A stretch of DNA of 64,000 nucleotides from a phage. Location: sequence record PZ452594.1; one strand, written 5' to 3'. Positions 1,816 through 55,893 of this stretch are shown piece by piece. The translations under genes were made by a program, and so were the position numbers. Position 1 is the stretch's first letter; every line of letters starts with the position of its first letter. The notes beneath the pieces were generated by a model. It had not been told where the DNA came from, did not search any database, and worked only from the letters and a program-made list of their open reading frames with translations.

Positions 1816-2052
1816 TTATTTACCTATTACAGTTTTAATATGAGTTGTTCCACGTTCTTTAAGGGTGGAAAGTAATTTTTGGCATTTTTCTAAATCAGAT
1901 TTCCAACTATATGGTCTATCAATACTAGTCCAATCAGTTTTATAATACTGTTTCCATTTAGAGAAAAAATATTTCTTATACTCTACAGCAAATGAGATGT
2001 TCTCGTTAGAATAAGAACTAATTGCTGTGAGCTTTACCAAACGAAATTTCAT
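1816..2052 (-). CDS. hypothetical protein (31.2-like)
   Basis: 78-aa ORF; stop overlaps cd-upstream arrangement. Confidence 0.5.
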   Translation of the reverse strand: MKFRLVKLTAISSYSNENISFAVEYKKYFFSKWKQYYKTDWTSIDRPYSWKSDLEKCQKLLSTLKERGTTHIKTVIGK

Positions 2053-2633
2053 TATTCACCACAGAATTCGTTGATATTTTCCCAGTTTAACTTATTCAAG
2101 TTTTTCTTAGGAACATTAAACACTTCAATACCCGCATTTCGCAGAATATCATCCCAGCCAGGTTTATTTTTATCGTATGTTTCGCAATAAACCAGCTTTT
2201 TAATACCAGATTGAGCTATCGCTTTTGCACAATCTGGGCAAGGAGAAAGTGTTACATACATAGTAGCACCTTCAATAGAAGAACCATTTCGTGCAGCAAA
2301 CAAAATTGCATTTAGTTCAGCATGAATTTCATTTTTAGATGACCATTCCGAGTGAGCGCTGCGGTGTTCTTTCGCCAAGACAAAACGATCAGTTGAACCA
2401 AATGATACACATTCAGGCTTATGACCTTGAATGATAGTATGTTTAGGCTTATTCAGTAACCAGCCTTGCTCAGCAGCATAATCACAACAGTTCACACCCC
2501 CTGCGGGTGAACCATTATACCCAGTAGAAATAATACGTCCATTCTTTTCAATTACTGCTCCTACCTTCCAGGAGCAACATTTTGATTCCTGTGATACTAA
2601 ATATGCAATTTGAAGTACTGTACTCGCTTTCAT
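2052..2633 (-). CDS. cd: dCMP deaminase
   Basis: 193 aa; zinc-binding HAE...PCxxC deaminase motifs (HAELNAI, SPCPDCAKAI). Confidence 0.9.
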   Translation of the reverse strand: MKASTVLQIAYLVSQESKCCSWKVGAVIEKNGRIISTGYNGSPAGGVNCCDYAAEQGWLLNKPKHTIIQGHKPECVSFGSTDRFVLAKEHRSAHSEWSSKNEIHAELNAILFAARNGSSIEGATMYVTLSPCPDCAKAIAQSGIKKLVYCETYDKNKPGWDDILRNAGIEVFNVPKKNLNKLNWENINEFCGE

Positions 2634-2968
2634 TTCATAATCACCAGATAAGCAGATTTAGCAGTTTCAACACGATAAATTTCGTGACGAAGTTTAGTTA
2701 TACTTTTAATAACAGAACTAATTATATTCTGCCCATCTTTAAAGCGGTTTTTCTTATCAATAAAAACTGCGCCAGTCATCTTTTTGTGAAGCTCAACCGG
2801 ATACTTCGTCACAATAATAGCATCATACACAGAAGGATGAATACTATTCACCAGAGTATCATTCATTAAAGTTATTCTAATGAACTGTGCTGTTTCAGAA
2901 TCAAGCGCTCTATGATCGCCAGTATCATTTTCAAGACAATTATCAATTATATCAGTTAAATTCATCAT
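2630..2968 (-). CDS. hypothetical protein (cd.1-like)
   Basis: 112-aa ORF, start overlaps next gene stop. Confidence 0.5.
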   Translation of the reverse strand: MMNLTDIIDNCLENDTGDHRALDSETAQFIRITLMNDTLVNSIHPSVYDAIIVTKYPVELHKKMTGAVFIDKKNRFKDGQNIISSVIKSITKLRHEIYRVETAKSAYLVIMK

Positions 2969-3201
2969 AGTACGCCATACACCCTTTGTGCTTCAACTAA
3001 TCCATCAAAATCTAATTTAAGATGCGATATTTGATCGCCATCACCTGGATTCACAATTACTAATACTGAACGAGGGGTTTCAGTAATAACACGAACCGAT
3101 GTTTCAGGAAATCGTTCAGAAACCTTATTTACTAATTCCTGTGCAAATAGTTTAACTTTTTCTTGGAATTCTTTAACAGTAATTGGTTTTTCACTTAGCA
3201 T
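2965..3201 (-). CDS. hypothetical protein
   Basis: 78-aa ORF with SD GAGGAAAACAAA before ATG. Confidence 0.5.
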   Translation of the reverse strand: MLSEKPITVKEFQEKVKLFAQELVNKVSERFPETSVRVITETPRSVLVIVNPGDGDQISHLKLDFDGLVEAQRVYGVL

Positions 3202-3231
3202 TTTGTTTTCCTCATTTGTTTTGGTAGAGCT

Positions 3232-3261
3232 ATAATATCACAACTCTACCGTAAAGTAAAC
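3232..3261 (-). promoter_or_regulatory. T4-type early promoter (GTTTAC-18-TATTAT)
   Basis: GTTTAC at 3256-3261 (minus), -10 at 3232-3237, just upstream of the 2965-3201 ORF. Confidence 0.5.
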
Positions 3262-3263
3262 TA

Positions 3264-3539
3264 TTAAATTGCTTTGAATTCTGATGTCTGTGATTCAAAG
3301 CGAATATCGCCTTTGATGACTAGCTCAGCATCAAGACCGAATACGACAATGATATGCGCTGAACCTGGATACAACGTGATGGCAACAGAATCCACCTGGT
3401 CTGGAAGCAAAGTATTCAATACATGAGTCACTTGAGCATGGATTCGAAGCTCAGCTGCATTATCAAGTTTTTCAAACATATTATTAGCGATAATTTGGCT
3501 AAACACTACTTCTACGATTTTAGAGTAAGTCGGAAACAT
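3264..3539 (-). CDS. hypothetical protein
   Basis: 91-aa ORF. Confidence 0.5.
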   Translation of the reverse strand: MFPTYSKIVEVVFSQIIANNMFEKLDNAAELRIHAQVTHVLNTLLPDQVDSVAITLYPGSAHIIVVFGLDAELVIKGDIRFESQTSEFKAI

Positions 3540-3541
3540 AT

Positions 3542-3734
3542 TTACCTCACATAATTTTCTTCAAGCCAATCAATAACATCCAAAGCGTTATCAAAAGTTG
3601 CGCCATCTACTTTGTCTTCTGTTTCATAATCAAGAACATCTAGGCCTACTCTTCCGTCAACAATAGGCCATAGACAAAATAGATATTTCTTTTCTTTTTC
3701 AATTTTATCACAAAGACGATAAATCTTTTCTAGG

Positions 3735-3742
<8 letters not shown>
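3542..3742 (-). CDS. hypothetical protein
   Basis: 66-aa acidic ORF. Confidence 0.45.
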
Positions 3743-4840
<1,098 letters not shown>

Positions 4841-16221: not shown

Positions 16222-17130
16222 TTAAAGGTCATTCAAAAGGTCATCCAGGTCCGTGTCATCAGCACTAGATGAACTACCAGAGCTTGAGCTCATAAAATCA
16301 TCTTCAGTTTTTGTATTGAAGTCATCAACATTGAATGCATCCAAATCATCAGCAACTTTATCAGCTTTCTTAGCAGCAGTTGCAGCGGCACCACCCATAG
16401 CAGCAGTTCCCATAACTTGGCTGAACTTAGTGCTCAGTTCTTCAAATGATTTGAATTTATCTTTAGAAGTCATTTCAGAAAGGTCAACCATTTGTTCGAA
16501 CAGTTCTTTCTGGAAAGATTCATCATCAATGTTTGGAATCGCAGATTGATTCAGGAATTTAGATTCATCGTAGTTACTAAATCCGGAAACTTGTTTAACT
16601 TTCAGTACAAAGTTAGCACCTTCCCACGGACAAGTTACATCAACCGGAGTTTCACCCATTTCAACATCAACTGCAATCATTGCATTGATTTTATCCCAGA
16701 TTTTCTTACCAAAACGGTATTTAAATACTTTACCTTCGTTTTCTGGAGCAGCTGGGTCTTTTACTACAAGAATGTTAGCCCAGTAAGAAGTTTTACGTTT
16801 AACAAGACTGTACTCTTTATTGTCAGTGTTGTACAGATCATTTTTACTGATGTATTGACATACTGGGCAAGAATCGTAATCACCGTGGGTAGATGAACAG
16901 TTTTCAATATACCATTTACCATTTTTCTTGAAACCGTGATTTACAAGAATTGCGAATGGTGCTTGTTCATCATTTTTAGACGGAAGAAAACGAATTACTG
17001 CTTGACCGTTACCCGCATTGTCGAGTTTCAGTTTCCACTCGCCTTTATCTTCAGAAGAAAAACCACCTTTATTTCCAGCCAGTTTAGCCATTTGTGCAGC
17101 GAGTTCAGCAGTAGATTTACGTTTAAACAT
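16222..17130 (-). CDS. 32: gp32 single-stranded DNA-binding protein
   Basis: 302 aa; zinc-ligand region and acidic serine/aspartate-rich C-terminal tail typical of T4 gp32. Confidence 0.95.
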
Positions 17131-17200
17131 TTTTATTTCCTTTTTAATTTAATTAACAGTTGGTGCTATGACGATGTATGACCTCATAGCTGGTCAGTGA
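17131..17200 (-). promoter_or_regulatory. gene 32 autoregulatory translational operator (pseudoknot plus unstructured A/U-rich leader)
   Basis: Minus-strand leader GCTATGAGGTCATACATCGTCATAGCAC followed by AACTGTTAATTAAATTAAAAAGGAAATAAAAATG. Confidence 0.65.
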
Positions 17201-17213
17201 GATAATTATAATC

Positions 17214-17221
17214 TATTTATA
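17214..17221 (-). promoter_or_regulatory. late-promoter box TATAAATA upstream of gene 32
   Basis: Exact TATAAATA on minus strand. Confidence 0.45.
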
Positions 17222-17229
17222 ATAAGCAA

Positions 17230-17883
17230 TTAATACTTGCAAGATTTCACAGTTTCAATGAAAACACTTTTAGCTTTCTGTGAATCAATATTTAAAATTT
17301 TTCTATAAGCCTTTAACTTTATAGAATAATTATTCCAGACTAAATTATCAGTCTGTTCATCGTGTTTATCAATTATATTTAAAAACGAATCAAGCAAGAT
17401 AAACGTTTCAAACGAAATTATATTCGACTGAAGCAGTTTAAAAATATAACTTGATTGAACCTTTGGATTATATTCAAAGATTTCTTTAAAAGCAGAAACT
17501 TCAACTTTTTTACTAAAATAATAAATGTTGCGAATATCTTCTTCAAACTTAAATTTAATTTGCTTTAAGCGTCCGATATATTCACGATAAAACACAAGTG
17601 CATCAGCGTCAGAGATGTCACCAATCCAAGCATCTTGGTTAGCAACCAAATTGCTTATAAAGATTAAAGCAAGTTCCTTTAATTTATATTTTTCTGATAA
17701 CTTCTGGAAAAAATACTTATCCCTTCGCTTTTGATAAGCGGCATCAGACACCCGCATGCACCAATTATACTTAATAACATCATACTTTCCATTCATATGT
17801 TGTTTTATCATTAAGTATAATTTATAAACTGATTTACCATCAATGTATCTTTCACCACCAGCAGGCATGCGGAGTTTAATCAT
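17230..17883 (-). CDS. 59: gp59 helicase-loading protein
   Basis: 217 aa matching T4 gp59 by recall; conserved position after gene 33. Confidence 0.9.
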   Translation of the reverse strand: MIKLRMPAGGERYIDGKSVYKLYLMIKQHMNGKYDVIKYNWCMRVSDAAYQKRRDKYFFQKLSEKYKLKELALIFISNLVANQDAWIGDISDADALVFYREYIGRLKQIKFKFEEDIRNIYYFSKKVEVSAFKEIFEYNPKVQSSYIFKLLQSNIISFETFILLDSFLNIIDKHDEQTDNLVWNNYSIKLKAYRKILNIDSQKAKSVFIETVKSCKY

Positions 17884-18218
17884 AGCAGAAAATCTAATGT
17901 ATTAGTTTTTTCACAACGAACAACAGAAGGACGTAAAAGATTTTCGTCAATAGCTTCTGACTGAATTTTTTCAATTATACCCGAAGGAATAAATTTAGCA
18001 AATTGAGTTTCAGGAATAGAGTTTTCTTCCAAGAATGCTGTCGTAGCTTCAAGATAACTCATTCCAAACTCTTCTACCATTTTTTCAATAATAAATCCAT
18101 TTTCTTGACGATCAAGAAGCTTTGCTATTTCATCCTTTTCTTTTTTGATTGAAAGTTCTTTTTCTGAAAGACCGGTCTCATCGACCGGACGAATATCATT
18201 TAGAGAAAACTGTGTCAT
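17880..18218 (-). CDS. 33: gp33 late-transcription co-activator
   Basis: 112 aa from internal ATG (MTQFSLNDIR...). Confidence 0.85.
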   Translation of the reverse strand: MTQFSLNDIRPVDETGLSEKELSIKKEKDEIAKLLDRQENGFIIEKMVEEFGMSYLEATTAFLEENSIPETQFAKFIPSGIIEKIQSEAIDENLLRPSVVRCEKTNTLDFLL

Positions 18219-18465
18219 AAAGTTCAACTACCTCTTCAGTTTCAGCTTCAAACACATCACGGTTATCTTTATGATACAAAGCTAACAGACGATTAAACAT
18301 CTTGCCATCAACACCAAGTTCATCTTTGGCACGAATTCGAATATCTTTAATCAGTTCATTATAACCGGAAATTTTCAGTTTATGATCAGATGCTTCTTTA
18401 ATAAATTTAGCCAAGTCTTCGCCATGGATAGCTTCATCAAATTCAACCATTTCTTTTTTAGCCAT
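18196..18465 (-). CDS. dsbA: DsbA double-stranded DNA-binding protein
   Basis: 89-aa ORF; position and length as in T4. Confidence 0.8.
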   Translation of the reverse strand: MAKKEMVEFDEAIHGEDLAKFIKEASDHKLKISGYNELIKDIRIRAKDELGVDGKMFNRLLALYHKDNRDVFEAETEEVVELYDTVFSK

Positions 18466-18473
18466 TATTCACC

Positions 18474-19391
18474 TCAAAATTCATTAATGCTATTAGTTAA
18501 TTTAGAAAGACCCGCTTTTACAAAATATGAATAAATTTTGCCACGCGGTGGTAATTTATATGAATTATAGTAATTCACAATGTTTGAAGCAATATTATCA
18601 GGAATATAATCAAAATCAATTAGAACTAAATTTTCTTTATAACGATTATATTCAGATTCTGTGAGAAGCACCTTAGCTTGCTCACGGTCATTAGCAATAG
18701 CTTCAACGATTGAAGTTTTCATTGAAGGAGTTCGTTCACCTTCAACTTTGGTAAACCAAAAGTCAGATCGTACTTTAACTGAAGCAACGTTATCCTTTTT
18801 GTCGCCTTTAAGGATTTTAGTCATACAGTCAATTTCAGCAGAACCGCTTTTAATTTTAACCCATTTCTTATGCATCGGTGACCATTGCTTAACATTTGGA
18901 TATTTGTGAAGTTGAGTAAAGTCACCATCAGATGAAATGATTAAAATCTTGTGTCCTTCTAAAGAGAACTTTTTAACAAGAACAGCAATGTGGTCATCTG
19001 CTTCATACTTATCAATATCCATAACAATGTATGGCATATAAGCTTTCAATTCATCTATGACTTTATGACTGGATTCAAAATAACCTTCCCAGTCCCAAGT
19101 AGATTCTTCTCGTGCTTTTCCGCGGTTTTTCTTGTAATAGTAAGCGAAATCACGACGCCAATATCCAGATTTCGCGTTATCAATACACAGTACAATTTTA
19201 GTGTATCCAAGCGTTTTTGCTTTTTTGACATTAAACTTAATTGAGTTCAATATCAAATGACGAACCATTGATAAATTAATTTTTTCTTTATCTGGGAAGT
19301 TTACCAAAGCAGTTGAAAGCGCAATTTGACTAAAGTCAATAAAGCAAATTCCTTCTTTGTAATCTTCATCCAGCATCATTTCTAAATCCAT
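18474..19391 (-). CDS. rnh: RNase H (5'-3' exonuclease, FEN-1 family)
   Basis: 305 aa from internal ATG (MDLEMMLDEDYKEG...). Confidence 0.92.
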   Translation of the reverse strand: MDLEMMLDEDYKEGICFIDFSQIALSTALVNFPDKEKINLSMVRHLILNSIKFNVKKAKTLGYTKIVLCIDNAKSGYWRRDFAYYYKKNRGKAREESTWDWEGYFESSHKVIDELKAYMPYIVMDIDKYEADDHIAVLVKKFSLEGHKILIISSDGDFTQLHKYPNVKQWSPMHKKWVKIKSGSAEIDCMTKILKGDKKDNVASVKVRSDFWFTKVEGERTPSMKTSIVEAIANDREQAKVLLTESEYNRYKENLVLIDFDYIPDNIASNIVNYYNSYKLPPRGKIYSYFVKAGLSKLTNSINEF

Positions 19392-29918: not shown

Positions 29919-30575
29919 ATGGCAGCACCTAGAATATCATTTTCGCCCTCTGATATTCTGTTTGGTGTTCTAGATCGCTTGTTCAAAGATAATGCTACCG
30001 GGAAGGTTCTTGCTTCCCGAGTAGCTGTCGTAATTCTTTTATTTATGATGGCGATTGTTTGGTATAGGGGAGATAGTTTCTTTGAGTACTATAAGCAATC
30101 AAAGTATGAAACATACAGTGAAATTATTGAAAAGGAAAGAAATGCACGCTTTGAATCTGTCGCCCTGGAACAACTCCAGATAGTTCATATATCATCTGAG
30201 GCAGACTTTAGTGCGGTGTATTCTTTCCGCCCTAAAAACTTAAACTATTTTGTTGATATTATAGCATACGAAGGAAGATTACCTTCAACAATAACTGAAA
30301 AATCACTTGGAGGATATCCTGTTGATAAAACTATGGATGAATATACAGTTCATTTAAATGGACGTCATTATTATTCCGATTCAAAATTTGCTTTTTTACC
30401 AACTAAAAAGCCTACTCCCGAAATAAACTACATGTACAGTTGTCCATATTTTAATTTGGATAATATCTATGCTGGAACGATAACCATGTACTGGTATAGA
30501 AATGATCATATAAGTAATGACCGCCTTGAATCAATATGCGCTCAGGCGGCCAGAATATTAGGAAGGGCTAAATAA
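29919..30575 (+). CDS. t: holin
   Basis: 218 aa; single N-terminal transmembrane segment and large periplasmic domain as in T4 T. Confidence 0.92.
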   Translation: MAAPRISFSPSDILFGVLDRLFKDNATGKVLASRVAVVILLFMMAIVWYRGDSFFEYYKQSKYETYSEIIEKERNARFESVALEQLQIVHISSEADFSAVYSFRPKNLNYFVDIIAYEGRLPSTITEKSLGGYPVDKTMDEYTVHLNGRHYYSDSKFAFLPTKKPTPEINYMYSCPYFNLDNIYAGTITMYWYRNDHISNDRLESICAQAARILGRAK

Positions 30576-53748: not shown

Positions 53749-53994
53749 TTATTCACCAGTTACTTTCCACAAATCTTCATTTGCAGCAATCCATTCAGTA
53801 CGTTGATTTTCTTCATATACTGTAGAATATGCTGCTTTTTCTGAAGGGAATGTCTGGTAATGTGCACCAGAAATTTTGTGAACGTCAGAATAAAGAGGGA
53901 AAGCTACGGAAATTTCCTTTCCTTCAATTTTCTTATTTCCATCTAATTTCTGCTCAAATGTTTTGATATTAACATAACCGCGAGTACTAGCCAT
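53749..53994 (-). CDS. soc: Soc small outer capsid protein
   Basis: 81-aa ORF MASTRGYVNIKTFEQ... matching T4 Soc by recall. Confidence 0.9.
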   Translation of the reverse strand: MASTRGYVNIKTFEQKLDGNKKIEGKEISVAFPLYSDVHKISGAHYQTFPSEKAAYSTVYEENQRTEWIAANEDLWKVTGE

Positions 53995-54024
53995 GTAATT
54001 CTCCTTTTATTTAAATTACATGAT

Positions 54025-54032
54025 TATTTATA
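54025..54032 (-). promoter_or_regulatory. late promoter TATAAATA for soc
   Basis: Exact TATAAATA (minus) about 30 nt upstream of the soc ATG. Confidence 0.6.
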
Positions 54033-54077
54033 ATAAATTCTCGCGGCTTTTAAGTCGTCGTTTATTTAAACGAGCTA

Positions 54078-54596
54078 TTAATAGCCTCGGTCTTGACGAG
54101 CGAAATTTTCAGCATTTTTCAGATAATAAAGTTTAAATATTTCTTCAGCTGACATTCCAAGAGCAATAAATTTATTCATGAAAAAGTGAAATTGGTCAAT
54201 CAGTTCAAATTTAATTTCAAGCTGATCTTCAGGAGATAAGTCTTGAATTTTCTTGGATTGCATTTCAGAATAACGTTTCTTCCAAGGTTTCCATACGGCA
54301 GAAGCTTCTTTTTCACCATTACTCATACCACCAAGAGAAGTATATAGCTCGCGAGTTTCATCTGCGATATAATCGTCTTGGTTTCGCAACCAAGCAAGAA
54401 CTTCTCCTGCAGTTTCAAGTGAATCAGGATGACGATTTGTTTCTGGTTTATCATTAGCCAAACGAATCTGTAAATGCCGCTGCATATCAAGCATAACCTG
54501 CAGTGGGTCAATATTGTGCATAATATTCTCAGCATATGCACGATTTGCTTTATCAACACCTTCGATCAAATGAGCGCATTCATTAAAGTAAGCCAT
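54078..54596 (-). CDS. 56: dCTPase / dUTPase (gene 56, MazG-like)
   Basis: 172 aa from internal ATG with SD AGGAAAATA; track N-terminal extension rejected. Confidence 0.8.
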   Translation of the reverse strand: MAYFNECAHLIEGVDKANRAYAENIMHNIDPLQVMLDMQRHLQIRLANDKPETNRHPDSLETAGEVLAWLRNQDDYIADETRELYTSLGGMSNGEKEASAVWKPWKKRYSEMQSKKIQDLSPEDQLEIKFELIDQFHFFMNKFIALGMSAEEIFKLYYLKNAENFARQDRGY

Positions 54597-54667
54597 TATT
54601 TTTCCTTTCAATTCATGGGTTAGTAGATTAATTATACAATAAATATATAAAGCAATAAGGAGGACAT

Positions 54668-54868
54668 ATGGTACAAAAATTAATGGCACTTGTTAATGCC
54701 ATAAAAGGTAATAAAAAACGTATAGCTTTTACTATTTCTGCTATGGTAGGAATTTTACTCTGGAACTTTATTCTATCACCTGTTGCAATTGCACATGGTA
54801 TTAATATTCCAGTAGTTACTCTTGATACATTTGTAGATTTAGCATTTGCTTTAGTTGGGTTGATTTAA
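54668..54868 (+). CDS. plus-strand small membrane protein, 66 aa
   Basis: Strong SD AAGGAGG 6 nt before ATG; hydrophobic; stop overlaps the gene 61 stop on the opposite strand. Confidence 0.5.
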   Translation: MVQKLMALVNAIKGNKKRIAFTISAMVGILLWNFILSPVAIAHGINIPVVTLDTFVDLAFALVGLI

Positions 54869-55893
54869 ATCTTAGCATATTTAGATAGCCGCATTTTAGC
54901 CATCAACCCCTGGGCAATATTATTTTTCATATATTCCATAATTTGTTCAGGGGTTGCACCTTCCTTTCTAATCATATCATTAACATCTTTTGATTTCCAG
55001 GGAGATTTATCCCAAAACATAACCCTTTCTCCTGCATCAACTAATTTAGTCATTCGCTTAATAGTGTCAGGATGACGAGGTTCATTATCTAAAACCCACA
55101 CTCGTCTATCTTTAAATGGAACAACTTCTAGGTCTAATTGACCACCCGTAATAGCTATACCATTTTCAATAAAAAGTGAATCTATAGGTCCTTCTAGAAC
55201 ATATACATCACCATCTTTAACTCGTTCGACTCCATAGATTTTTGTTGCTTCAGGATAAGCTTTGATGGTGATATATTTTTGGGGAGCATCTTTCTTTAAT
55301 GCACGTCCTTGAAAAGACTCAGCTTTTCCATTAGCATTATAAATTGGAATAACAAGACGAGGCTCAGGTATTTCCTTTTTATATGTTCCCGGTGCTATGC
55401 TATTAACTAATTTAGGCCATTCAGTTGTAAACCAAAGATATTTCCATTTATCCTTTGGAATACAACGAGCTTTTATATATTTTATAATTGCATGGTCTTC
55501 CGCCAGTTTATCTAATCTAACACATGACGGAAGAGATTTAATTATTTTCTTCTCAGGTTGTTTAGGAAGTTCTTTAGGTTTTTCTACTGGACGACTTTTA
55601 CCTTTTTCTTTTCTTATTTCAAAGATATACTCACGATATAAATCGGGTTCAAACTCCTTTAAATATATTCCGATTGGCGCATGATAGTTGCAGTTATAAC
55701 AATGAATATTTCCTTCATTATTATCACCATAATACCATCCACGGGCTTTATTTTGATCGGTTTTTGAATCTCCACAAACAGGACATCTAAACCGTAATTT
55801 AAAAGTTGAACTATTATTTACTTGCGCGAATTTAGGTAAATGAGCCAATGCACGGTATGCAAACTCATTATCAATCCAAGGTATTGATGACAT
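54865..55893 (-). CDS. 61: gp61 DNA primase
   Basis: 342 aa; N-terminal zinc ribbon (CPVCGDS...CYNC) and TOPRIM-like region. Confidence 0.93.
   Translation of the reverse strand: MSSIPWIDNEFAYRALAHLPKFAQVNNSSTFKLRFRCPVCGDSKTDQNKARGWYYGDNNEGNIHCYNCNYHAPIGIYLKEFEPDLYREYIFEIRKEKGKSRPVEKPKELPKQPEKKIIKSLPSCVRLDKLAEDHAIIKYIKARCIPKDKWKYLWFTTEWPKLVNSIAPGTYKKEIPEPRLVIPIYNANGKAESFQGRALKKDAPQKYITIKAYPEATKIYGVERVKDGDVYVLEGPIDSLFIENGIAITGGQLDLEVVPFKDRRVWVLDNEPRHPDTIKRMTKLVDAGERVMFWDKSPWKSKDVNDMIRKEGATPEQIMEYMKNNIAQGLMAKMRLSKYAKI

What the first reader, a model, noticed from the sequence alone, without database searches (positions are those of the whole stretch)
54668..54868. Plus-strand membrane-peptide gene embedded among minus-strand early genes
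A 66-aa hydrophobic ORF with a near-perfect Shine-Dalgarno sequence (AAGGAGG) is oriented against the surrounding early transcription. Its stop codon overlaps the gene 61 stop on the other strand, and an AATAAATA late-promoter-like box lies upstream. I do not recall a gene at this position in T4.
Basis: partly seen in the sequence, partly recalled or inferred. Interest (0 to 1): 0.5.

Follow-up and report, generated by a model that had tools for sequence, protein, structure and literature searches.

The report
Overlooked T4 late membrane-protein gene dam.1
The 66-codon plus-strand ORF is a real, strongly conserved T-even phage gene (already annotated as "dam.1" in phage T4T and as a hypothetical protein in hundreds of relatives, but missing from the T4 reference record) that encodes a small inner-membrane protein, most likely made late in infection; its function has never been tested.

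Summary
The ORF runs from 54668 to 54868 on the + strand. AAGGAGG lies 4 nt before the ATG, and AATAAATA lies 22 nt upstream. The stop codon overlaps the stop of primase gene 61 on the other strand.

It is not a new gene. It is the orthologue of T4T "dam.1" (98.5% identical) and belongs to PHROG 2024, function unknown. The T4 RefSeq record leaves it unannotated.

It is protein-coding:
- dN/dS is 0.10-0.15.
- An intact copy occurs in about 503 Tequatrovirus records, against 502 that carry a close gp61.
- Relatives at 20-55% identity sit in the same place and orientation in other Tevenvirinae genera.

An xATAAATA box and a strong Shine-Dalgarno sequence precede it in every T4-like lineage examined. 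ATAAATA is three-fold under-represented in the window. AATAAATA is the commonest natural variant of the T4 late promoter.

The predicted product has a short amphipathic helix, a basic cluster, one transmembrane helix with an invariant mid-membrane Trp-Asn, and a conserved periplasmic loop.

Function is inferred only. Distant relatives lie beside lysis genes in other phages and give repeated sub-threshold matches to holin families, so a lysis-associated role is my best guess (about 0.3).

Verdict: real gene, already catalogued, uncharacterised, moderately interesting.

The parts
54638..54645 (+). AATAAATA, a T4 late-promoter-type box (positions -13 to -6). The predicted transcription start is near 54651, giving a leader of about 17 nt.
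   Evidence: An xATAAATA box lies 16-33 nt before the ATG in every T4-like lineage examined, although the flanks are not alignable. A at -13 is the commonest natural variant (PMC2988020; PMC1524935). The holin gene t in this window uses the same variant. The transcription start is not mapped.
54657..54663 (+). Shine-Dalgarno sequence AAGGAGG, 4 nt before the ATG.
   Evidence: AAGGAGG, AGGAGG or AAGGAG is conserved upstream of all the T4-like homologues. There are only 2 copies of AAGGAGG on the + strand of the window.
54668..54868 (+). Orthologue of T4 dam.1: a 66-aa small inner-membrane protein of family phrog_2024.
   Evidence: ORF; 98.5% identity to T4T Dam.1; phrog_2024, E 1.4e-31; dN/dS 0.10-0.15; AF2 pLDDT 80.8; helices 2-12, 16-42 and 52-63.
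54631..54654 (-). Neighbouring element, not part of the gene. MotA-type middle-promoter-like site for gene 56: TGCTTTA, 11 nt, TATAAT. It lies back-to-back with the + strand late box and overlaps it.
   Evidence: An equivalent 'predicted middle promoter' is annotated in Yersinia phage fPS-90. This is a consensus match only.
54673..54702 (-). Terminator-like hairpin followed by a T-run on the minus strand, inside codons 6-12 of the ORF. It is a candidate terminator for the gene 61 transcript.
   Evidence: and (-8.9 kcal/mol, z = -2.1). It is annotated as a terminator in fPS-90. It is specific to Tequatrovirus and not conserved in Mosigvirus or Gaprivervirus.
54865..55893 (-). Gene 61 (DNA primase). 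It is convergent with the ORF and its 3' end overlaps the ORF by 4 nt.
54078..54596 (-). Gene 56 (dCTPase). It is divergent from the ORF across a 71-nt intergenic region.
   Evidence: The start is set at MAYFNEC..., and the GTG-extended ORF is an artefact.

Best explanation
The ORF is a genuine protein-coding gene and the orthologue of T4 dam.1.

SHOWN:
- It is conserved as a protein across enterobacterial Tevenvirinae, always clockwise among counter-clockwise early genes.
- It is always preceded by an xATAAATA box and a strong ribosome-binding site.
- It usually ends in a 4-nt overlap with the convergent downstream gene.

INFERRED:
- Early and middle T4 transcription is exclusively counter-clockwise, so the gene can only be read by the gp55/gp33/gp45 late RNA polymerase from its own variant late promoter. 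Transcription would start near 54651, and with no terminator nearby it would continue antisense into gene 61.
- The 66-aa product inserts into the inner membrane with its N-terminus inside. It has an amphipathic helix (2-12) and a basic cluster KGNKKR in the cytoplasm, one transmembrane helix (about 16-42) with an invariant mid-membrane Trp32-Asn33 and Pro38, a conserved periplasmic loop (Gly44, Pro48, Val50, acidic residue 53) and a short C-terminal helix.
- The buried Asn and the conserved outer-leaflet and loop motif suggest that it works by helix-helix association in the membrane, either with itself or with a partner.

MOST SPECULATIVE:
- I think its most likely role is in the late membrane and lysis programme, as a holin-like or holin-modulating accessory protein. 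I put this at about 0.3.
For: Identity:
- 98.5% identical to T4T Dam.1, and 100% identical to annotated proteins of Shfl2 and others.
- Matches phrog_2024 at E 1.4e-31.

Coding:
- NG86 dN/dS is 0.10-0.15 within Tequatrovirus and against Mosigvirus, and changes concentrate at third codon positions.
- In-frame 3-codon deletions are tolerated (P0025, P0078).
- 503 phage records carry a copy at 90% identity or more, against 502 records with gp61 at 95% or more.
- Two subfamilies and a tandem paralogue share the invariant residues W32, N33, P38, G44, P48 and G64.
- An exhaustive profile search found remote members that sit in the same place and orientation in diverged T4-like contigs, again with a 4-nt convergent overlap.

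Late promoter:
- xATAAATA lies 16-33 nt before the ATG in all eight lineages. Its position relative to the minus-strand middle promoter shifts, or that promoter is absent.
- ATAAATA is three-fold depleted in the window, and the only two other such box, SD and ATG combinations on the + strand serve genes 34 and t.
- The literature describes the A(-13) variant and the counter-clockwise polarity of all early and middle transcripts (PMC2988020; PMC1524935).

Membrane protein:
- Hydropathy and the AF2 model.

Lysis lead:
- Remote members give repeated, co-linear but sub-threshold hits to holin families: PF11351, phrog_3427 and phrog_11161.
- In an E. coli prophage inserted in yegD, the family member closes a late operon. 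That operon contains a DUF2730 (Mu releasin family) gene and a signal-less lysozyme. The family member is one of only two membrane proteins near that endolysin (PMC9239132).
- In L022 and L024 it lies one gene away from a protein with an N-terminal TM segment and a coiled coil, the same architecture.
Against: - I could obtain no transcript, transcription-start or peptide evidence. The T4 dRNA-seq start-site table is not held.
- The box is never the perfect TATAAATA. G or C at -13, as in T4 and Gaprivervirus, are rarer variants of unknown strength.
- For the lysis guess, the window protein itself matches no holin family. All holin hits are below the curated thresholds (13.6-15.3 bits against 24.8) and could reflect hydrophobic composition.
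- The protein lacks the charged C-terminal tail typical of holins.
- T4 already has a complete and intensively studied lysis system (t, rI, rIII, e, pseT.3/pseT.2), and no lysis mutation is known to map here. That last point rests on my own knowledge.
- In T4-like genomes the gene is not near any lysis gene.
- A few frameshifted copies exist (P0026, P0027, P0029).
Confidence: 0.75

Rival explanations
1. The gene is real and late-expressed, but its membrane product works outside lysis. It could modulate a host inner-membrane protein, as small bacterial regulators such as MgrB or AcrZ do. It could protect the infected cell envelope against late superinfection or lysis from without. It could counter a membrane-acting host defence. 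It could help membrane-associated prohead initiation (gp20/gp40).
For: - The architecture is the same as in the best explanation.
- The most conserved part is the outer-leaflet half of the TM helix and the periplasmic loop. That fits recognition of a specific partner rather than bulk hole formation.
- There is no holin-type charged C-terminus.
- The gene lies in the same gene block as sp (spackle) and gene 40.
- One remote member sits directly upstream of a RelA/SpoT-family gene (L025).
- In L022 and L023 the gene travels with a 179/196-aa protein weakly matching a 'minor tail protein' PHROG.
Against: - No specific partner is indicated by any result.
- The known exclusion proteins Imm and Sp are early proteins, whereas this gene cannot be transcribed early.
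- The only recurring functional hints in searches are to holin or lysis families and lysis-gene neighbourhoods.
Confidence: 0.35
2. The important product is the clockwise late RNA. It would act as an antisense transcript that runs into gene 61 (and onward to 41) to shut down primase and helicase expression, or to interfere with the oriA-type middle promoter late in infection. The ORF would be secondary.
For: - The late-type box lies back-to-back with the middle-promoter-like site of gene 56 and overlaps it.
- The ORF converges on gene 61 and overlaps it by 4 nt.
- No + strand terminator-like site occurs before about 58.8 kb, so any transcript must become antisense to 61.
- T4 is known to transcribe both strands at some sites at different times (PMC2988020).
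Against: - An antisense role does not explain dN/dS of 0.1, the conserved strong SD, the conserved amino-acid motif at 20-30% identity, or the tandem paralogue.
- It does not explain members that are co-oriented with their neighbours in non-T4 phages, where no antisense target exists.
- It can only be an additional function, not the only one.
Confidence: 0.1
3. The ORF is not a gene. The conservation would reflect overlapping minus-strand regulatory DNA, namely the terminator after gene 61 and the promoter for 56 or dam. The open frame would be fortuitous and propagated by automatic annotation.
For: - A terminator-like hairpin (54702..54683) and a middle-promoter-like site lie in or next to the ORF.
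- The T4 reference curators did not call the ORF.
- No experimental paper mentions dam.1.
Against: - The hairpin is confined to Tequatrovirus, and the DNA diverges to saturation at synonymous sites while the protein motif persists.
- The frame is open in about 690 phage records spanning several genera, with more found using a remote query.
- A profile built from the proteins retrieves members in unrelated genomic contexts.
- Regulatory elements occupy only about 30 of the 201 nt.
Confidence: 0.03

Closest known systems
T4T gene dam.1 (ADJ39749.1, HM137666.1 17724..17924) / PHROG phrog_2024
   Same: The protein is 98.5% identical. It has the same length, strand and 4-nt overlap with gene 61, and the same SD and ATAAATA box. 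It matches the PHROG over its full length at E 1.4e-31.
   Different: In T4 and T4T the upstream neighbour is dam and the box reads GATAAATA. In this window dam and segF are absent, gene 56 is the divergent neighbour and the box reads AATAAATA. No function is attached to either name, and the T4 RefSeq record lacks the gene.
T4 soc, a late gene embedded in an early region with its own late promoter
   Same: It is a small late-type gene lying among early genes and served by a private TATAAATA-type box. In this window soc is at 53749..53994 with TATAAATA at 54032 on the minus strand, only about 0.6 kb away.
   Different: soc lies on the same strand as the early genes and encodes a soluble capsid decoration protein. 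The ORF here is on the opposite strand, convergent with gene 61, and encodes a membrane protein.
Phage holins: T4 T (class III), phage 21 pinholin S68, the GTA/phage '3TM holin' family PF11351, and phrog_3427
   Same: It is a small, late, inner-membrane protein. Like T4 T, it is predicted to be N-in with a single transmembrane helix. In this phage it uses the same AATAAATA variant as gene t. Remote family members align co-linearly with the last TM and tail of PF11351 and phrog_3427. In an E. coli prophage a member lies in the operon that carries the endolysin.
   Different: All scores are below family thresholds, and the window protein gives no hit. It has no charged C-terminal tail and no large periplasmic domain like that of T. 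It is not adjacent to an endolysin in T4-like genomes. Hole formation is untested.
T4 Imm and Sp (spackle), small envelope proteins of superinfection exclusion
   Same: They are small T-even proteins acting at the inner membrane or periplasm. sp lies in the same gene block (61.3).
   Different: Imm and Sp are early genes on the early strand. No sequence relationship was detected, since the PHROG scan returns only phrog_2024.
Mu gp25 releasin (DUF2730)
   Same: In non-T4 relatives the family co-occurs with a DUF2730 or DUF2730-like protein (N-terminal TM segment plus coiled coil) next to the lysis genes (PMC9239132).
   Different: It is a neighbour, not a homologue. The architecture differs: the family has no coiled coil, and the predicted topology is opposite (gp25 is N-out/C-in). 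T4-like phages carrying dam.1 show no DUF2730 gene nearby.

Membership tests
T4 Dam.1 / phrog_2024 | Full-length sequence match to the family profile and to the named T4T protein. | tested here: met
   phrog_2024 at E 1.4e-31, covering residues 2-66 against profile positions 1-65 of 65. It is 98.5% identical to T4T Dam.1.
T4 Dam.1 / phrog_2024 | Syntenic position: clockwise, between the 56/dam block and gene 61, convergent with gene 61. | tested here: met
   The same holds in remote T4-like contigs L018 and L021.
T4 late gene (gp55/gp33/gp45-dependent transcription) | A TATAAATA-type element at -13 to -6 upstream of the gene. | tested here: met
   AATAAATA at 54638-54645. The A(-13) variant occurs at 9 of 50 listed T4 late sites (PMC2988020). 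The box is conserved as xATAAATA in all lineages.
T4 late gene (gp55/gp33/gp45-dependent transcription) | A late-appearing, replication- and gp55-dependent RNA 5' end at the predicted start. | not testable with these tools
   The T4 dRNA-seq start-site table (bioRxiv 10.1101/2024.04.04.588121) is not held as text.
Holin | A small protein with at least one transmembrane domain, located in the inner membrane. | tested here: met
   Hydropathy and the AF2 helix 16-42. This is prediction only.
Holin | A hydrophilic, highly charged C-terminal tail. | tested here: not met
   The C-terminus is ...DLAFALVGLI, hydrophobic and uncharged. The charge cluster is N-terminal.
Holin | A match above threshold to a curated holin family. 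| tested here: not met
   The window protein has no Pfam, NCBIfam or holin-PHROG hit. Remote members score 13.6-15.3 bits against PF11351, whose cut-off is 24.8. They match phrog_3427 at E 5e-4 to 2e-3.
Holin | Encoded next to the endolysin or within the lysis cassette. | tested here: not met
   In the window and all T4-like loci the neighbours are 56/dam and 61. Only the E. coli yegD prophage member shares an operon with a lysozyme, about 1.5 kb away.
Holin | Lethal, energy-poison-triggerable hole formation that releases endolysin. | not testable with these tools
   This needs expression and DNP or cyanide triggering assays, or complementation of a lambda S-am mutant.
Superinfection-exclusion proteins (Imm/Sp type) | Early expression from the counter-clockwise strand, and sequence similarity to Imm or Sp. 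| tested here: not met
   The gene is on the clockwise strand. All early and middle transcripts are counter-clockwise (PMC2988020). The PHROG scan returns only phrog_2024.

The most novel reading that the evidence does not exclude
Dam.1 may be an unrecognised component of the T-even late membrane programme. It could be a small holin-like or holin-modulating protein, distantly related to the last transmembrane module of '3TM' holins. It would have escaped 60 years of T4 genetics and all modern omics because it is missing from the reference annotation. Its relatives might supply the missing holin of E. coli yegD-type prophages, whose lysozyme has no export signal.
Probability: 0.2. Interest if true: 0.6.

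Novelty: already known. Interest (0 to 1): 0.3.

Why it matters
T4 is the reference organism for this phage group, yet its RefSeq record (NC_000866.4) has an unannotated 309-bp gap exactly here.

At least one major T4 transcriptome and proteome study counted only NC_000866.4 features (PMC9697503). A gene missing from that record is invisible to studies of that design.

The comparative evidence says the gap holds a protein under purifying selection, probably late-expressed. It is conserved wherever gp61 is at least about 60% identical. It is also one of the very few genes oriented against its early neighbours. In five T4-like genomes, novel ORFs "almost invariably" follow the direction of their flanks (PMC1524935).

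Adding it to the reference annotation is cheap. It would let existing RNA-seq, dRNA-seq, Ribo-seq and mass-spectrometry data be re-read.

If it does act on the membrane late in infection, it bears on lysis timing and lysis inhibition, which are classic T4 problems. If it does not, it is still a compact, conserved single-pass membrane protein with an invariant buried Trp-Asn and an unknown partner.

Tried and rejected
- **Literature.** No paper in the library contains 'dam.1'. Searches for T4 ribosome profiling, small proteins and start-site mapping gave nothing specific. The one T4 dRNA-seq study reports 150 phage start sites, 22 of them antisense, but its table is not held.
- **Family and structure searches for the window protein.** Pfam, NCBIfam and PDB sequence searches gave nothing. 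Foldseek against viral models returned only the protein's own family. The UniProt label 'Holin' on the OE5505 homologue carries no evidence that I could see.
- **Terminator explanation.** I considered that a minus-strand terminator explains the conservation. I rejected this because the hairpin is Tequatrovirus-specific.
- **Middle-promoter explanation for the box.** I considered that the ATAAATA box is conserved only as part of the minus-strand middle promoter. I rejected this because T4, L012, L018 and L021 keep the box without any MotA-box match, and where a match was found (window, Gaprivervirus) its position relative to the box differs.
- **Prophage relatives in the species-representative genome collection.** Scans with P0120 and P0117 found nothing. 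The E. coli complete-genome collection did supply the context.
- **Outgroups.** The 61-56 regions of Slopekvirus KP27, Krischvirus KFS-EC, Acinetobacter phage Ac42 and Aeromonas phage PX29 contain no family member.

Full report
**1. What is in the sequence**

The window is a Tequatrovirus (T4-like) genome. The 341-bp query around the ORF (54560-54900) is 99.7% identical to Shigella phage ESh33 and matches 505 phage records.

At 54668..54868 on the + strand there is a 66-codon ORF. AAGGAGG sits at 54657-54663, 4 nt before the ATG. AATAAATA sits at 54638-54645.

On the minus strand, gene 56 (dCTPase) lies to the left. Its real ATG is at 54596. Gene 61 (primase, 54865..55893) lies to the right. 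The two convergent stop codons overlap, so the genes share 4 nt.

**2. It is already an annotated ORF, though not in the T4 reference**

A tblastn search of the protein finds 693 phage records, and 687 of them cover at least 80% of it.

- In T4T (HM137666.1) the ORF is annotated as 'dam.1: hypothetical protein', at 98.5% identity.
- Most other records call it 'hypothetical protein' or 'Phage protein'.
- T4 RefSeq NC_000866.4 annotates nothing between dam (16846-17625) and 61 (17935-18963), although the ORF is intact there at 17738-17938.
- It belongs to PHROG phrog_2024, 'unknown function', at E 1.4e-31.
- It has no Pfam, NCBIfam or PDB relative.
- No paper in the library contains 'dam.1'.

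In T4, dam lies between gene 56 and this ORF. In the window, dam and segF are absent and gene 56 is the immediate divergent neighbour. No Dam DPPY motif occurs anywhere in the window.

**3. It is protein-coding**

- *Substitution pattern.* Nei-Gojobori dN/dS is 0.10-0.15 within Tequatrovirus and between Tequatrovirus and Mosigvirus. There synonymous sites are saturated (pS 0.73) while pN is 0.31. Third-position changes dominate.
- *Intactness.* 503 records carry a copy at 90% identity or more, against 502 records whose gp61 is at least 95% identical. Only a handful of frameshifted copies turned up among hundreds. In-frame 3-codon deletions occur.
- *Depth.* Mosigvirus and Gaprivervirus homologues (49-57% identity) lie in the same place and orientation. 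Gaprivervirus carries a second, diverged tandem copy, which is the main type in Klebsiella T4-like phages. Both types share the invariant residues W32, N33, P38, G44, P48 and G64.
- *Exhaustive search.* A profile search of 1.8 billion representatives found only 17 clusters at E of 1e-3 or better.
  - The remote members P0110 and P0111 sit between the gene 56 region and primase in diverged T4-like contigs. They are again clockwise and again overlap the convergent downstream gene by 4 nt.
  - A tblastn search with P0111 finds members in Jiaodavirus, Gelderlandvirus (S16), Moonvirus (CF1), Dhakavirus (JS98), Kanagawavirus and others. Several are unannotated.
- *Outgroups.* The 61-56 regions of Slopekvirus KP27, Krischvirus KFS-EC, Acinetobacter phage Ac42 and Aeromonas phage PX29 contain no member.
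- *Regulatory DNA cannot explain this.* The terminator-like hairpin inside codons 6-12 (54702..54683; -8.9 kcal/mol, z = -2.1) is specific to Tequatrovirus.

**4. The late-promoter reading**

The literature gives four relevant facts.

- All T4 early and middle transcripts are counter-clockwise, while late transcripts have either polarity.
- Of 50 listed late sites, 32 are perfect TATAAATA and 9 have A at -13 (PMC2988020).
- In other T4-like phages the -13 position is A or T (PMC1524935).
- The box spans -13 to -6. That puts the predicted start near 54651 and gives a 17-nt leader.

The comparative evidence is as follows.

| Lineage | Box |
|---|---|
| Window, fPS-90, Mosigvirus | AATAAATA |
| T4, L011, L012, L018 | GATAAATA |
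| Gaprivervirus, L021 | CATAAATA |

- The box lies 16-33 nt before the ATG, and the flanks cannot be aligned.
- ATAAATA is rare in the window: 7 and 8 copies against about 21 and 25 expected.
- The only three + strand 'ATAAATA ... GGAG ... ATG' combinations precede gene 34, gene t (holin, also AATAAATA) and this ORF.
- The box is not just part of the minus-strand promoter.
  - In the window it lies in the spacer of a textbook MotA-type site for gene 56 (TGCTTTA, 11 nt, TATAAT; 54654..54631).
  - In Gaprivervirus it overlaps the MotA box.
  - In T4, L012, Mosigvirus MM02, L018 and L021 the same scan found no MotA-type site.

Late transcription is thus well supported by inference, but it has not been shown. 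The one T4 dRNA-seq data set (150 phage start sites, 22 antisense) is not available as text.

No + strand terminator-like site follows the ORF for about 4 kb. Any transcript must therefore run antisense into gene 61. This may add a regulatory effect, but it cannot account for the protein-level constraint.

**5. The product**

- GRAVY is 1.25. There are five basic residues, four of them in K13-R18, and two acidic residues at D53 and D57.
- AlphaFold2 with a 16-sequence alignment gives pLDDT 80.8. It predicts helices 2-12, 16-42 and 52-63, with a loop at 43-51.
- By the positive-inside rule the N-terminus is cytoplasmic.
- The 27-residue helix is the only segment long enough to span the membrane. 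W32 and N33 lie near its middle.
- The family-wide motif is [LVF]-W-N-[FYL]-x3-P-x5-G-x3-P-x-[VIM]-x-[LIM]-[DE]. It covers the outer half of the helix and the periplasmic loop.
- The cytoplasmic N-terminus varies in length and sequence but stays charged.
- A conserved polar Asn buried in a transmembrane helix is a classic driver of helix-helix association. This point rests on established membrane-protein biophysics and is my inference here.

**6. Functional leads**

Function is untested. Three independent but weak lines point towards lysis.

- *(a) Sub-threshold holin matches.* All hits fall below the curated thresholds, and the window protein itself gives none.
  - P0119, P0114 and P0109 align co-linearly to the C-terminal 45-50 positions of Pfam PF11351, 'Holin of 3TMs'. 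Scores are 13.6-15.3 bits against a cut-off of 24.8.
  - P0119 and P0121 match holin PHROG 3427 at E 5e-4 and 2e-3.
  - P0111 and P0118 match holin PHROG 11161.
- *(b) Non-T4 contexts.* There the gene is co-oriented with late or structural genes.
  - In 25 complete E. coli genomes, a member is the last gene of a prophage inserted in yegD.
  - Upstream in that late operon are a tail fibre gene, a DUF2730 protein (PGAP's name; the Mu gp25 'releasin' family, PMC9239132) and a 135-aa T4-type lysozyme with no signal or SAR sequence.
  - The only membrane proteins near that endolysin are the DUF2730 protein and the Dam.1-like protein.
  - In L022 and L024 the gene is one gene away from a protein with an N-terminal TM segment and a coiled coil, the same architecture.
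- *(c) Shared promoter variant.* In this window the ORF and the holin gene t use the same AATAAATA variant.

Several points count against a lysis role.

- The protein has no charged C-terminal tail.
- In T4-like genomes the gene is not near any lysis gene.
- T4 already has a complete, well-studied lysis system.

Other roles remain open: a partner-specific membrane regulator, envelope protection, counter-defence, or head assembly at the membrane. One remote member lies upstream of a RelA/SpoT-family gene.

I put a lysis-associated role at about 0.3, other membrane roles at about 0.35-0.4, and 'RNA only' or 'not a gene' together below 0.15.

**7. Comparison, novelty and score**

The closest known entity is the gene itself, T4T dam.1 / phrog_2024. 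As a kind, it resembles soc, a late gene with a private late promoter inside an early region. It differs in being on the opposite strand and in encoding a membrane protein.

It fails three of the holin membership criteria that I could test, so I do not file it as a holin.

The finding is real, but the ORF is already catalogued in hundreds of GenBank records, so I rate novelty as 'already known'.

The residual interest has four parts.

- The T4 reference annotation omits a conserved gene that is probably late-expressed. At least one large T4 omics study counted only reference features (PMC9697503).
- Its orientation is exceptional among T4-like accessory ORFs (PMC1524935).
- The family reaches into unrelated prophages, next to lysis genes.
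- Nobody has tested its function.

Interest: 0.3.

Noticed in passing
window 54631-54654 (-) and 54638-54645 (+): A textbook MotA-type middle-promoter-like site for gene 56 (TGCTTTA, 11 nt, TATAAT) lies back-to-back with the + strand late box. The late box sits inside its spacer. In T4 the transcript of gene 56 primes replication origin oriA, according to the record note. In this dam-less phage the two divergent promoters may therefore share about 25 bp at an origin-type promoter.
   Followed up: partly
window 53995-54667, compared with L001 (T4T) 1837-4000: Compared with T4, this phage lacks both segF (between soc and 56) and dam (between 56 and dam.1). No Dam DPPY motif occurs anywhere in the 64-kb window. 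In relatives the slot next to dam.1 is variable: a homing endonuclease in fPS-90 and DK-13, and dam in T4.
   Followed up: partly
window 54673-54702 (-): A terminator-like hairpin (ATGGCATTAACAAGTGCCAT followed by a T-run; -8.9 kcal/mol) for the gene 61 transcript is embedded in codons 6-12 of the + strand ORF. It is present in Tequatrovirus only. This stretch of DNA would then serve both as coding sequence and as a terminator.
   Followed up: partly
L006 2701-2901 (UPEC01); L013/L014 about 2201-2401; L005 and L017: Gaprivervirus phages carry a second, diverged tandem copy of the gene directly downstream. This second copy takes over the 4-nt overlap with primase. In TH40 (L005) and L017 it is frameshifted or truncated. 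In UPEC01 it is mis-annotated as 'DNA packaging ATPase'.
   Followed up: partly
L030 18278-20714 (E. coli NZ_CP024269.1, prophage in yegD); also L023: A prophage inserted in yegD, found in 25 complete E. coli genomes, has a signal-less T4-type lysozyme and a DUF2730 (Mu releasin family) gene but no annotated holin. The Dam.1-like 70-aa protein is its last gene. DUF2730 was reported only in transposable phages (PMC9239132). In the region I read, this prophage has an HK97-type head module, and I did not see a transposase there.
   Followed up: partly
L025 129-1383: A remote family member (P0119, 59 aa) lies 17 nt upstream of a 352-aa RelA/SpoT-family (small alarmone synthetase-like) gene, followed by a DUF2188 gene. 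The contig is a short metagenomic one and the pairing is unexplained.
   Followed up: no
whole window: The late-promoter core ATAAATA is about three-fold under-represented on both strands: 7 and 8 copies against about 21 and 25 expected. This is consistent with selection against spurious late promoters. The holin gene t (29919..30575) is served by the AATAAATA variant (29893), not by the perfect TATAAATA.
   Followed up: partly
window 54078..54689 (-): The mechanical ORF list shows a 203-aa ORF starting at a GTG. This is gene 56 with a spurious 31-codon upstream extension that runs across the intergenic region and into the first 22 nt of the + strand ORF. The real start is the ATG at 54596 (MAYFNEC...).
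   Followed up: yes
L027 3527-4117 (Krischvirus KFS-EC): An unannotated gap of about 590 bp follows the primase gene where dam.1 would lie in T-even phages. It holds no member of this family. I did not examine what else it holds.
   Followed up: no
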